A stretch of 64,000 nt of DNA from Escherichia coli (GTDB lineage: Bacteria; Pseudomonadota; Gammaproteobacteria; Enterobacterales; Enterobacteriaceae): the NCBI RefSeq assembly GCF_030013205.1, contig NZ_CP122648.1; one strand, given 5' to 3'. The position numbers and the translations under genes are program-made. Positions within the stretch are counted from its first letter, which is position 1. Each line of letters starts with the position of its first letter. The notes below the pieces were generated by a model. It had not been told where the DNA came from and searched no databases. It saw only the letters and a list, made by a program, of their open reading frames with translations. Below are positions 14,595 to 16,858 of the stretch, one piece after another.

Positions 14595-16142
14595 TTAACC
14601 GTCATGCATCATGCTGGCACGGGCGCGCGCACGTTTATCCCGCTCGTATTTTTCGAGCGCATCCTGTAACTGGCGGTCAAGCTGTGTCCCCGGCGCAGTA
14701 CCACCCGTCAGGCTGATGTGATATTCGTTTTTACTCTGGTCTACATAAGAGCGGCCAGCCGGTGCCGTGACCGGCTGATAAGCCTGATAGCCTGCATAAG
14801 AGCTGGTCGCCGGAATATAACCACCGGTGCCATACGTGGCGGCATGAGTTCTGGCGGCGGTCTGGTCAAGTGTGTCTGACTCTTTGTTGATAACACCGAG
14901 TTTTTCCAGTACCCAGTCAATACCGCTGCGCAGTTTGTTGAACGCATTAAGCGGCAGCATCAACGCGTCAGCCAGTGCCTGCCCGAACATGACGCCCGAA
15001 TCACGGCAACGGTTCAGGGTGTCCTGGGTGGCTTTGACCGGGGCAATCAGGTTTTTAAACCACTGCCACGCGGCCTGTAACTTTTCACCCAGCCAGTCAA
15101 ACAGCGGCTTAAGTGGCGTGAACAGTTCCCCCACCGGCGCAAATGCTGCTTTCAGCCCTTCAACCACACCGCCAAAGAATGCGCTGACAGGCTCCCAGTA
15201 TTTACGGATAAGCAACGCCCCGGCGACAATGGCGGCCACCACGGCCACAACCGGCCAGCTAATCGCCCCGATGGCCGTCATAACAGCACTGCCAACCGTC
15301 GTGAAGATTGCCCCCATTGCGCCTGCTGCCGCAATGATGGCATTGATGCCGGTGATAACCGGCCAGGCTACAAGACCAATTGCACCGATGATGCCAGTAA
15401 GCGCCAGTGCGCCACCGGCAATGATGCCGATAGTTGCCGCCAGTGATTTGTTTTTCTGTATCCAGCCGTCGAGTTTTAACACATACTTTGTGGCCGTCTG
15501 CGTGAGCTTACGCAGTGCGCCTTCCTGCTGGTCAAACAGGTCAGTCCCCACCGCTTCATAAGCGGACTGAAACTCCTTAAAGTCACCGCCGAGGTTGTCC
15601 TGCATGATTTTAACCAGCTCTTCCGTTTTACCGTCTGAGGCTTTCAGCGTGGCGGTCAGCTTATCCAGTTTTCCGCTTGCAGCCGCTGCCAGTAAAACGT
15701 TCGCTGATTTCAGGGCTTCCTCACCAAAAATGGTTTTAAGGTATTCCCCCTTCTGAGACGTTCCCAGCTTGTGTTTATCAAAGCTGACCTGAATCTCTTT
15801 CAGAATGGTGAACAACGGACGCATATTTCCCTTTTTGTCCGAGGTTTTAACGCCAAGCTCTTTGAGTGCTTCCCATGCTTTCCCTGTCGGAGCCTGTAAT
15901 CGGGTGACAACGGCACTACTCCCCGTACCCAGCATGGAGCCGATGCCGCACACCGCAGGCAGTGACAGGTCAGGAAACTGCACCAGAACAACACCGGCAA
16001 CCATCGAGACAAAACCACCGAGCAACATGCGCCCGATAAACAGACGCGGGGTGATGGGTTCACCACCGGCAAGCACCTTGCCGACAACAATCAGCACCCC
16101 AATCATGAAAAGCGACAGGACGCTTTTTTCTTCTGCTGTCAT
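14595..16142 (-). pseudogene. chimeric ORF: hydrophobic N-terminus (possibly holin Y) fused to the C-terminal part of tape-measure protein T; marks the deletion of the lysis/tail block
   Basis: 515 aa versus ~800+ aa expected for P2 T; TM-rich first ~75 aa; gene X immediately upstream, with the P2 genes between X and T absent. Confidence 0.6.
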
Positions 16143-16145
16143 GCG

Positions 16146-16349
16146 TTACTCCCACAGATTGACAGTTTCAGCCACGGGCGCGGTCTGAACGTCGGGCAGT
16201 TCGACGGCGGTGCCGTGCGGCAGCACCGCGCCCAGTTCAGCCAGTCCCGGATTTGCGGCGAGCACGGCTTCGACCACGCCCTCAGTGCGCCCGTAATACC
16301 GGACACAGATGGCGTCGAGCGTGTCGCCCTGTAGCGCAAAGGTCTTCAT
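16146..16349 (-). CDS. P2 gpX-like tail protein (LysM-like)
   Basis: Translation MKTFALQGDTLDAICVRYYGRTEGVVEAVLAANPGLAELGAVLPHGTAVELPDV; start ATG overlaps the gpL stop. Confidence 0.75.
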   Translation of the reverse strand: MKTFALQGDTLDAICVRYYGRTEGVVEAVLAANPGLAELGAVLPHGTAVELPDVQTAPVAETVNLWE

Positions 16350-16858
16350 CAGATTTGACTCACGATGCAGCGCGGCTTGTCCTGGATGCGCGCCACCGCC
16401 CAGCGCATATCCCGCCACAGCTCATCAATGGTGCTGTCAATGCTGTCGGCCTTCTTGTCGCCTTTCGCACTGGCATCCACGCCGCGGTAACGCTCATAAA
16501 GCGACGCGGTCGCCATCGCACACACAGCGCGCTCGTAGTAAAAAACTTTGATGCTTTCACCGTCGATGTCGTCCGCCGGAACGTCCGCCAGACGCGTAAA
16601 ACCGGCGGCAATTTTCTGTTCGCGGTACTCGTACAGCTCCGCATTCGTTTCCGCCATGCCTGACTTGATGGCCTCACGCAGGCGGGCGGGGGCGACGGTC
16701 TGCTCAAGGCGCATACGTTCCCGGACACGCTTCGGGTCGATATCGGGAAAAAAGAACGTGTTTTTAATCACCGGCTCGTCGCCTGCCGGTTGCGGGATGA
16801 CCACCGTACCCTCACCGGACACGGGAGCCTCCTTTCGCGGAATAATCAGCGTCATCAT
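16349..16858 (-). CDS. P2 gpL-like head completion protein
   Basis: Translation from MMTLIIPRKEAPVSGEG; position after M as in P2. Confidence 0.8.
   Translation of the reverse strand: MMTLIIPRKEAPVSGEGTVVIPQPAGDEPVIKNTFFFPDIDPKRVRERMRLEQTVAPARLREAIKSGMAETNAELYEYREQKIAAGFTRLADVPADDIDGESIKVFYYERAVCAMATASLYERYRGVDASAKGDKKADSIDSTIDELWRDMRWAVARIQDKPRCIVSQI

What the first reader, a model, noticed from the sequence alone, without database searches (positions are those of the whole stretch)
14595..16418. In-frame deletion chimera ending in the tape-measure C-terminus: the whole lysis and tail-sheath/baseplate/fibre block is missing
In P2 the order is L-X-Y-K-lysA-lysB-R-S-V-W-J-I-H-G-FI-FII-E-T-U-D. 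Here X (16146-16349) is followed directly by a 515-aa ORF. Its first ~75 residues are hydrophobic, not tape-measure-like, and the rest looks like the C-terminal portion of T. About 15 kb of late genes are absent. The prophage keeps intact capsid, terminase, replication, immunity and integration functions but cannot build tails or lyse, so it is a defective element retained with its cargo. Reading the N-terminus as holin Y is my inference from gene order.
Basis: inference. Interest (0 to 1): 0.45.

Follow-up and report, generated by a model that had tools for sequence, protein, structure and literature searches.

The report
Tail-less P2 prophage deletion remnant
This is a P2-type prophage in a pig-derived E. 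coli that recently lost about 11–14 kb of tail and lysis genes in one deletion, which fused the start of the holin gene to the end of the tape-measure gene; it is an ordinary example of prophage decay.

Summary
The 515-aa ORF (window 14595-16142, minus strand) is P2 holin gpY residues 1-72 (identical to P2) fused in frame to tape-measure gpT residues 373-815. The breakpoint is at window 15926-15930, in a 5-bp microhomology (GGGTA) inside an imperfect 16-nt match. In both genes that match encodes G-S-M-x-G in the same codon phase.

The deletion removes K, lysA/B/C, R, S, V, W, J, I, H, G, FI, FII and E. That is 14.0 kb in P2 coordinates and 11,425 bp against the closest intact relative, a prophage in strain PEC41. 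No P2-type sheath or tube gene was found on the host chromosome.

The 18.4-kb remnant lies between fieF and cpxP, flanked by 47-bp att repeats. It keeps head, terminase, cos, replication, immunity and integrase genes, plus a two-gene HNH cargo.

The same junction occurs in only 6 of 5,426 complete E. coli genomes, all Belgian porcine ETEC, and in 17 public contigs. Relatives show further deletions. Other lineages at this site carry independent late-region deletions. RefSeq already annotates the two halves as pseudogene fragments.

Verdict: a recent, ordinary prophage-decay event. Interest is low.

The parts
12480..12526 (.). attL: the fieF-side copy of a 47-bp direct repeat that brackets the prophage. 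It contains the CCCCCACATCATGTGGGGG hairpin.
   Evidence: Exact repeat found by script. It lies between fieF and ogr.
12638..12856 (-). ogr, the late-gene activator; intact
   Evidence: 72/72 aa identical to P2 Ogr; Pfam Ogr_Delta; PGAP names it ogrK.
12938..14101 (-). gpD tail/baseplate hub protein; intact
   Evidence: 98.7% identical to P2 D over 387 aa; PF05954.
14101..14580 (-). gpU tail protein; intact
   Evidence: 97.5% identical to P2 U over 159 aa; PF06995. The protein WP_063118424.1 is the same as in the intact PEC41 prophage.
14595..15930 (-). 3' part of the tape-measure gene T (P2 gpT residues 373-815); forms the C-terminal 443 residues of the chimera
   Evidence: tblastn T 368-815. 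100.000% DNA identity to PEC41 prophage T over window 14380-15930. PGAP: 'tail tape measure protein, incomplete, missing N-terminus'.
15926..15930 (-). Deletion junction: 5-bp microhomology (GGGTA on the gene strand) shared by Y and T, inside an imperfect 16-nt match that encodes G-S-M-x-G in both genes
   Evidence: The two blastn blocks overlap here. Three-way alignments with P2, KFu022 and P24C9 Y and T.
15926..16142 (-). 5' part of holin gene Y (codons 1-72 of 93). TMD1 and TMD2 are kept; TMD3 is cut and the charged C-terminal tail is lost.
   Evidence: 72/72 aa identical to P2 gpY; PF04550 E = 6.4e-33, profile positions 1-78 of 86; hydropathy windows; PGAP: 'holin, incomplete, missing C-terminus'.
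16146..16349 (-). gpX tail protein; intact
   Evidence: 98.5% identical to P2 X over 67 aa; PF05489.
16349..19691 (-). Head genes L, M, N and O (head completion, small terminase, major capsid, scaffold); all full length
   Evidence: 97.6-99.7% identical to P2 over their full lengths; PGAP CDSs without pseudogene flags.
19865..22671 (+). P (large terminase) and Q (portal); intact
   Evidence: P is 590/590 aa identical to P2; Q is 99.4% identical; annotation.
22841..22859 (.). cos, the 19-nt cohesive-end site
   Evidence: These window bases match both P2 1-19 and P2 33575-33593.
22988..24830 (-). Cargo at the position of P2 old/tin: a 139-aa protein of unknown function and a 443-aa protein with a C-terminal HNH_2 nuclease domain. 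Low GC (0.38).
   Evidence: PGAP CDSs; PF13391 E = 8e-11; PADLOC gives only weak generic HNH hits; PHROG families of unknown function; GC profile.
24940..29234 (-). Early operon: A (replication nickase, contains ori), orf83-80, B, orf78, cox. All full length.
   Evidence: tblastn against P2; annotation; 97.6% DNA identity to P2 30299-26290.
29387..30730 (+). Immunity repressor C and integrase. This is a non-P2 allele (46% and 51% aa identity to P2).
   Evidence: The module is 99.7-100% identical to isolated phages: Escherichia phage 899, vB_EcoM-12474II-V, Yersinia phage GMG73 and Salmonella phage STYP1.
30846..30892 (.). attR: the cpxP-side copy of the 47-bp direct repeat

Best explanation
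A complete P2-like (Peduovirus) prophage of about 29.8 kb, integrated between fieF and cpxP, underwent a single recent illegitimate recombination event. It could have been replication slippage or microhomology-mediated joining. The exchange was between two short, imperfectly matching stretches, one in holin gene Y and one in tape-measure gene T. Both encode G-S-M-x-G in the same codon phase. The crossover fell in a 5-bp exact match (GGGTA), so the product reads through in frame as Y(1-72)::T(373-815).

The event removed 11.4 kb. This block held the endolysin, the lysis-timing and spanin genes, tail completion (R, S), the baseplate (V, W, J, I), the fibre and its chaperone (H, G), the sheath and tube (FI, FII), the tape-measure chaperones (E/E'), the pV and pF late promoters and the O-operon terminator.

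The remaining 18.4-kb element can probably still repress, replicate, excise and make DNA-filled heads. It cannot make tails or lyse the cell, so it is a defective prophage. The fusion protein is most likely a non-functional by-product. It lacks half of the third holin transmembrane segment and the regulatory C-terminal tail. It also lacks the N-terminal 45% of the tape measure, and the chaperones and tube it would need. The element is now decaying neutrally, as shown by further deletions in sister isolates.

Shown here: anatomy, breakpoint, gene content, distribution and secondary deletions. Inferred: the deletion mechanism, loss of function of the chimera, and the residual abilities of the remnant.
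For: **Anatomy and breakpoint.**
- Two collinear blastn blocks against P2 overlap at the junction.
- Against the intact PEC41 prophage the two blocks overlap by exactly 5 nt. The T side is 100.000% identical over 1551 nt, and 11,425 bp are missing.
- Alignments show the Y-to-T switch at GGGTA, within GG(C/G)TC(C/A)ATG(CT/GC)GGGTA.
- Pfam, PHROG and NCBIfam all give holin at the N-terminus and tape measure at the C-terminus.

**Gene content.**
- 15 essential late genes are absent from the window.
- No FI/FII-like DNA is present on the chromosomes of the seven swine strains that carry the cargo (one place per record, namely the cargo half of a composite query).
- att repeats are present and cos is present.
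- All remaining genes are full length.

**Distribution.**
- The junction is confined to one clone: 6 of 5,426 complete genomes and 17 contigs.

**Ongoing decay in the same lineage.**
- ETEC4069 has lost 615 bp of P.
- A Logan contig with the same chimera lacks the 5' part of P plus O and N.
- K_EC180 has the same site, the same D, A, int and cargo proteins, and the same flanking host alleles. It carries a U'-'P deletion that removes the chimera and all head genes.

**Independent deletions in other lineages at the same att site.**
- KFu022: S to FI'.
- E3: N' to 'FI.

**Existing annotation and literature.**
- PGAP already labels both halves as incomplete pseudogenes.
- Defective P2-like prophages with conserved defence cargo are described in bioRxiv 10.64898/2026.02.27.708500.
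Against: - The fusion is in frame, keeps Y's start and ribosome-binding context, and sits in the intact O operon behind an intact ogr. It could therefore be expressed and might have some activity. No tool here can test that.
- Every other gene of the remnant in this window is intact. That would also fit selection for a partial function, although recency explains it equally well.
- Only FI/FII were used as a proxy for tail genes elsewhere, and only chromosomes could be read from the result. Plasmids of these strains and very divergent myovirus tails were not excluded.
- The order of events cannot be proven. The K_EC180 deletion could derive either from the Y'-'T state or from an intact ancestor, because it spans the junction.
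Confidence: 0.9

Rival explanations
1. Domesticated element: the host keeps the remnant because its hotspot cargo (the HNH-nuclease two-gene module) and/or its immunity repressor protect against other phages. Loss of the lysis and tail genes was selected because it removes the risk of prophage-induced death.
For: - The cargo proteins WP_023281581.1 and WP_023281582.1 are identical in the intact PEC41 phage, in the six ETEC genomes, in ETEC4069 and in the much more degraded K_EC180 remnant, while the structural genes erode.
- The cargo sits where P2 carries old/tin.
- A preprint reports that defective P2-like elements keep near-identical defence genes.
- Deletions at this site repeatedly hit the late region.
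Against: - The time scale is too short for retention to mean selection. The T fragment is 100% identical to an intact phage over 1.5 kb.
- The cargo is not a recognised defence system. PADLOC gives only weak generic HNH hits. There is no solved relative. NCBIfam gives only a sub-threshold match, 33 bits against a 180-bit cut-off.
- The late region makes up about half of the genome, so random deletions would hit it often.
Confidence: 0.25
2. Helper-dependent mobile element: with att, int/cox, ori/A/B, cos, terminase and a full head module, the 18.4-kb remnant could excise, replicate and package itself into its own heads. It would then be released and gain tails when a P2-like phage superinfects, so it would behave like a satellite.
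For: - The att repeats, cos and all head, terminase, replication and integration genes are intact in this window.
- From established P2 biology (my knowledge, not tested here): heads and tails assemble independently and join afterwards.
- The int/C/cox module is identical to that of viable phages.
Against: - Sister isolates have already lost P, O and N sequence, or the entire head module. This argues against selection for packaging.
- The junction is confined to one clone at one chromosomal site, with no sign of horizontal spread.
- No P2-type tail genes are resident on the chromosome.
- 18.4 kb is about 55-60% of a P2-size genome. Stability in a T=7 head is uncertain (my inference).
Confidence: 0.07
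3. Assembly or annotation artefact: the junction is a collapse between two short similar sequences and the real genome carries a full prophage.
For: The junction lies in a short imperfect repeat. In principle this is where assemblers could mis-join.
Against: - A 5-bp exact or 16-nt imperfect match is far too short to collapse an assembly.
- Six complete genomes and 17 contigs from NCBI and Logan assemblies of different runs give the identical junction.
- FI/FII DNA is absent from the whole chromosome.
Confidence: 0.01

Closest known systems
Bacteriophage P2 (Peduovirus P2, NC_001895)
   Same: - Same gene order.
- 94-98% DNA identity across ogr-D-U-T' and Y'-X-L-M-N-O-P-Q-cos, and across the early operon orf78-B-orf80-83-A.
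- Protein identities are 97-100% for most shared genes.
   Different: - Lacks P2 coordinates about 6933-20950, that is K through the 5' 45% of T.
- old/tin are replaced by an HNH two-gene cargo.
- Int, C and Cox are a different allele, 43-51% aa identity.
- Integrated at fieF-cpxP.
Intact P2-like prophage of E. coli PEC41 (NZ_CM168023.1, near yegR)
   Same: - U and the 3' part of T are 100% identical in DNA.
- The rest of the late and early regions is 98.5% identical.
- The cargo proteins are identical.
- It is the best available model of the parent's late region.
   Different: - PEC41 has the full 11,425-bp Y-to-T block.
- It has a P2-type int/C/cox module.
- It sits at a different attachment site.
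Other defective P2-like prophages at the fieF-cpxP site (K_EC180, KFu022, E3 and related strains)
   Same: Same attachment site, the same P2-like backbone, and internal deletions within the late genes that leave partial genes at the breakpoints.
   Different: - The breakpoints differ: U'-'P in K_EC180, S to FI' in KFu022, N'-'FI in E3.
- Only the present one gives a long in-frame fusion.
- KFu022 and E3 carry a different hotspot cargo, a restriction enzyme and/or a Dcm-type methyltransferase.
Defective P2-like elements with conserved defence genes (bioRxiv 10.64898/2026.02.27.708500)
   Same: The general phenomenon: incomplete P2-like prophages with pseudogenised core genes and hotspot cargo nearly identical to that of intact phages.
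   Different: That work is a survey. This particular deletion, its breakpoint and the Y::T fusion are not described there, as far as I read.
P4-type phage satellites
   Same: Only conceptually. Both are integrated elements that would need P2 tail and lysis functions from a helper.
   Different: P4 has no head genes of its own and has its own primase, Sid/Psu/Delta and integrase. This element is a straightforward P2 deletion derivative with P2 head genes.

Membership tests
P2-like (Peduovirus) prophage | P2 gene order and high similarity of head, terminase, late-control and replication genes | tested here: met
   Collinear blastn blocks at 94-98% identity. 22 P2 proteins have hits in P2 order.
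P2-like (Peduovirus) prophage | Integrase next to an att site, with flanking direct repeats (attL/attR) | tested here: met
   47-bp exact direct repeat at 12480-12526 and 30846-30892. The int module is identical to that of isolated phages.
P2-like (Peduovirus) prophage | cos site between Q and the old/tin hotspot | tested here: met
   Window 22841-22859 matches both P2 cohesive ends.
Complete, potentially viable P2-like prophage | Full set of essential tail genes (R, S, V, W, J, I, H, G, FI, FII, E/E', T, U, D, X) | tested here: not met
   Only X, U, D and a 3' fragment of T are present. No FI/FII were found elsewhere on the chromosome.
Complete, potentially viable P2-like prophage | Lysis cassette (holin Y, endolysin K, lysA, spanins lysB/lysC) | tested here: not met
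   K, lysA, lysB and lysC are absent. Y is truncated after codon 72.
Phage holin family 2 (Pfam PF04550; P2 gpY) | Full-length small membrane protein of about 93 aa with three hydrophobic segments and a charged C-terminal tail | tested here: not met
   The match is far above the gathering score (113.5 against 25 bits), but it covers only profile positions 1-78 of 86. Residues 73-93 of gpY, the second half of the third hydrophobic segment plus RRFKGRGKQ, are replaced by T sequence. Whether hole-forming activity remains could not be tested.
Tail tape-measure protein (P2 gpT; TIGR01760/PF10145) | Full-length protein (815 aa in this cluster) encoded after the E/E' chaperone genes and the tube gene | tested here: not met
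   Only gpT 373-815 is present. Of the 13 other members listed for its 90% cluster, 12 are 815 aa and one is a 760-aa partial. E, FII and FI are absent.
Phage satellite (P4-like) | Lacks its own capsid genes; carries satellite-specific genes (Sid/Psu/Delta, alpha primase) | tested here: not met
   The element encodes P2 N, O, L, M, P and Q. No gene other than P2 homologues and the two cargo genes is annotated.
Known anti-phage defence system (for the cargo) | Significant match of the component proteins to a curated defence-system model | tested here: inconclusive
   PADLOC gives only generic HNH models (E = 3e-11 and 2.5e-7) and a marginal PD-Lambda-3_B hit at E = 0.002. Pfam gives HNH_2 only. 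The NCBIfam PT-DNA restriction model scores 33 bits against a 180-bit cut-off.

The most novel reading that the evidence does not exclude
The remnant is not just debris. It could be a functional head-only P2 derivative that behaves as a helper-dependent, satellite-like mobile element carrying a new HNH-based defence module. It would excise, replicate and package its 18.4-kb genome in its own capsids, then borrow tails and lysis from a superinfecting P2-like phage. Alternatively, the in-frame Y::T membrane fusion has acquired a role of its own, for example in superinfection exclusion.
Probability: 0.05. Interest if true: 0.45.

Novelty: already known. Interest (0 to 1): 0.1.

Why it matters
It matters little beyond correct annotation.
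- The ORF should not be read as a short tape-measure protein, although some nr entries do so. It is a holin'-'tape-measure fusion pseudogene that marks a defective prophage.
- The locus is a clean, datable example of stepwise prophage decay by microhomology-mediated deletion within one porcine ETEC clone: intact relative, then ΔY-T, then further losses in P/O/N or from U to P.
- The cargo of unknown function persists throughout. That could make this clone a convenient natural series for asking whether hotspot cargo is what keeps P2 remnants in genomes.

Tried and rejected
1. **Short but intact tape-measure variant.** Rejected. The N-terminal 72 residues are identical to gpY, and every other listed cluster member but one 760-aa partial is 815 aa.
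2. **Tail genes relocated within the window or the genome.**
   - tblastn of all P2 proteins against the window found none.
   - I ran a composite query (2 kb of strain-specific cargo plus P2 FI-FII) in blastn 'distant' mode. It gave one place per chromosome in the ETEC strains, so there is no FI/FII elsewhere.
   - Plasmids and very divergent tails were not excluded.
3. **Assembly artefact.** Rejected.
4. **P2 itself as the reference for the breakpoint.** P2 and KFu022 T are only about 92% identical to the T' part near the junction, which blurred the microhomology. P24C9 and especially PEC41 gave the clean 5-bp overlap.
5. **Identifying the cargo.**
   - Pfam, PADLOC, PHROGs, NCBIfam and the PDB sequence search gave only an HNH_2 domain and families of unknown function.
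   - megablast against 50,697 phage records found nothing.
6. **Literature.**
   - No paper on these ETEC strains was found.
   - No mention of a cpxP/fieF att site was found in the P2 integrase phylogeny paper.
7. **Technical.** Several fetched loci (L003, L006, L008-L011) never appeared in the script sandbox. Their breakpoints were therefore read from annotation tables and DNA alignment rather than from blast.
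Full report
**Source and context**

The window is identical (13,001 of 13,001 bases tested) to the chromosomes of four of six porcine enterotoxigenic E. coli from Belgium: ETEC4067, 4070, 4071 and 4079. ETEC1748 matches but for a single base, and ETEC4069 matches apart from a 615-bp deletion. The region of interest is a P2-like prophage inserted between fieF and cpxP. A 47-bp exact direct repeat at window 12480-12526 and 30846-30892 brackets it, so the element is 18.4 kb long.

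**Checking the observation**

- The minus-strand ORF 14595-16142 encodes 515 aa.
- Pfam places phage holin family 2 (PF04550) on residues 1-77 (E = 6.4e-33). It places the C-terminal end of the minor-tail/tape-measure domain PF10145 on residues 68-140.
- PHROGs (holin phrog_175, tape measure phrog_28) and NCBIfam TIGR01760 agree.
- Residues 1-72 are identical to P2 gpY. The rest aligns with gpT 368-815.
- blastn against P2 gives two collinear blocks: window 12548-15941 = P2 24342-20951, and window 15926-22859 = P2 6932-1.
- tblastn with every P2 protein finds no K, lysA, lysB, lysC, R, S, V, W, J, I, H, G, FI, FII or E in the 64-kb window. It also finds none of the P2 cargo genes orf30, fun(Z), orf91, tin and old.

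The finding's end coordinate 16418 is only an upstream GTG extension in the mechanical ORF list.

**The breakpoint**

Near the junction the T' part is about 92% identical to P2 and KFu022 T, which blurs the picture. Phage P24C9 is closer, 97.7%. An intact prophage in the Korean swine isolate PEC41 is the best reference. Window 14380-15930 is 100.000% identical to it over 1551 nt, and window 15926-28960 is 98.5% identical.

The two blocks overlap by exactly five bases (window 15926-15930; GGGTA on the gene strand), and 11,425 bp of PEC41 lie between them.

The 5-mer sits within an imperfect 16-nt match, GG(C/G)TC(C/A)ATG(CT/GC)GGGTA. This reads G-S-M-L-G in Y and G-S-M-A-G in T, in the same codon phase. 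The shared phase explains why the fusion is in frame: Y(1-72) + T(373-815) = 515 aa.

A short-homology junction of this kind is the usual signature of RecA-independent illegitimate recombination or replication slippage. That mechanism is my inference.

In P2 coordinates the loss is about 14.0 kb. The difference from 11.4 kb is P2's own cargo (orf30 and fun(Z)), which the closest relative lacks.

**What is left**

All of the following are full length and unflagged by PGAP:
- ogr, D, U and X
- L, M, N, O, P and Q
- A, orf83-80, B, orf78 and cox
- C and int

cos is present at 22841-22859. The int/C/cox module is not the P2 allele (43-51% aa identity). It is 99.7-100% identical to that of isolated phages such as Escherichia phage 899, vB_EcoM-12474II-V, Yersinia phage GMG73 and Salmonella phage STYP1.

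Where P2 has old/tin there is a low-GC two-gene cargo: a 139-aa protein and a 443-aa protein with a C-terminal HNH_2 domain. No known defence-system model matches it convincingly.

**Are the missing genes elsewhere?**

I built a composite query from 2 kb of the strain-specific cargo plus P2 FI-FII and ran it in blastn 'distant' mode. In each of the six ETEC chromosomes, and in K_EC180, it gave exactly one place, the cargo. No P2-type sheath or tube gene is therefore present elsewhere on the chromosome at roughly 65-70% identity or above. Plasmids could not be read from that output.

**Distribution and age**

- A 201-nt probe across the junction is fully covered in 6 of 5,426 complete E. coli genomes, all from the Belgian ETEC set.
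- The exact 515-aa protein is on 17 contigs in public assemblies.
- In nr it is labelled 'phage tail tape measure protein'.
- RefSeq PGAP annotates it as two pseudogene fragments.
- The 100% identity of the T fragment to an intact phage means the deletion is very recent.

**Ongoing decay in the same lineage**

- ETEC4069 has lost a further 615 bp of P. Its product is 385 aa instead of 590.
- One Logan contig (SRR19716130) with the same chimera lacks the 5' part of P together with O and N. This is a single short-read assembly, so it is less certain.
- K_EC180 (swine, Korea) has the same site and the same flanking host protein alleles. Its D, A, int and cargo proteins are identical. It has a deletion joining U to the 3' end of P at a 3-bp microhomology (window about 14484-21351). 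This removes the chimera and the whole head module.

**Independent deletions in other lineages at the same att site**

- KFu022 lacks S through the 5' part of FI.
- E3 and its relatives join N' to 'FI.

Deletions in the late region are therefore recurrent. The head genes in this window are evidently not being maintained.

**How it most likely works**

After the deletion the pV and pF promoters and the O-operon terminator are gone (P2 annotation). Y'::'T, U and D would therefore be read as a continuation of the Ogr-dependent O operon. This is an inference.

The chimera keeps the first two hydrophobic segments of the holin and half of the third. It loses the charged C-terminal tail. It also lacks the N-terminal 372 residues of T, as well as the E/E' chaperones and the tube. 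I consider it an inert by-product; this is an inference and was not tested.

The remnant probably still confers immunity. It may excise, replicate and fill heads. It cannot lyse the cell or make infectious particles.

**Comparison with what is known**

This is a defective P2-like prophage. Many P2-like sequences in bacterial genomes have long been regarded as cryptic (PMC3448106). A recent survey reports defective P2-like elements whose defence cargo remains almost identical to that of intact phages (bioRxiv 10.64898/2026.02.27.708500). Nothing here departs from that picture.

- on size, 11.4-14.0 kb rather than 15 kb
- on 'retained with its cargo', which remains an untested inference

**Verdict**

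This is a real, well-defined and ordinary prophage deletion, already flagged as pseudogene fragments in RefSeq. Interest is about 0.1.

The most novel reading not excluded is a helper-dependent, head-only mobile element or a functional Y::T fusion. It has low probability, about 0.05. The junction shows no horizontal spread, and sister isolates are losing the head genes.

Noticed in passing
window 22988-24830 (minus strand): Low-GC (0.38) two-gene cargo at the P2 old/tin hotspot: a 139-aa protein of unknown function and a 443-aa protein with a C-terminal HNH_2 nuclease domain. There is no convincing match to PADLOC, NCBIfam or PDB sequences, and no megablast match in 50,697 phage records. The two PHROG families it matches have unknown function. 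Identical proteins occur in the intact PEC41 prophage and in every decayed variant. It is a candidate uncharacterised anti-phage module.
   Followed up: partly
L006 (K_EC180) 14027-14688; corresponds to window ~14484-21351: A sister swine isolate carries the same prophage lineage at the same site with a larger deletion. It joins U (minus strand) to the 3' end of P (plus strand) at a 3-bp microhomology (TAC). It removes the Y::T chimera, X, L, M, N, O and most of P.
   Followed up: yes
L008 (ETEC4069) 8866-10023; L010 (SRR19716130 contig) 7153-8442: Secondary deletions in isolates that still carry the Y::T junction. ETEC4069 has a 615-bp loss within the large terminase gene P. A short-read contig shows a loss of about 2.6 kb covering the 5' part of P, O and N.
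   Followed up: partly
L003 (KFu022) 19049-20166; L007 (E3) 8555-9896: Unrelated strains with P2-like prophages at the same fieF-cpxP site have independent late-region deletions: S to FI' in KFu022 and N'-'FI in E3. They carry a different hotspot cargo, a BbrUII/HgiDII-type restriction enzyme and/or a cytosine methyltransferase. This illustrates both recurrent decay and cargo turnover at this site.
   Followed up: partly
L005 (PEC41) 1-27839 versus window 12480-30892: Late genes and cargo that are 98.5-100% identical (100% over U and the 3' part of T) are combined with two different integration and immunity modules. PEC41 has P2-type int/C/cox next to yegR. The window has a 43-51%-identical allele at fieF-cpxP. 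This is a clear case of modular exchange of the int-immunity block.
   Followed up: partly
window 12480-12526 and 30846-30892: The 47-bp att repeat contains a GC-rich hairpin followed and preceded by A/T runs (AAAAAAAACCCCCACATCATGTGGGGGAA). It looks like the bidirectional terminator between fieF and cpxP. Integration therefore duplicates the terminator and leaves both host genes terminated.
   Followed up: no
window 16349-16918, 16146-16418, 18837-19757, 19835-21637: The mechanical ORF list extends L, X, O and P upstream of their true starts, which are 16858, 16349, 19691 and 19865 according to P2 homology and PGAP. The finding's end coordinate 16418 comes from this effect.
   Followed up: yes
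window ~50400-51100 and ~61500-63350 (L012 8464-9105 and 19568-21382): Outside the prophage, PGAP marks a partial YiiG-family pseudogene. Near the low-GC end of the window it marks a transposase next to a truncated hypothetical gene. Neither was examined.
   Followed up: no
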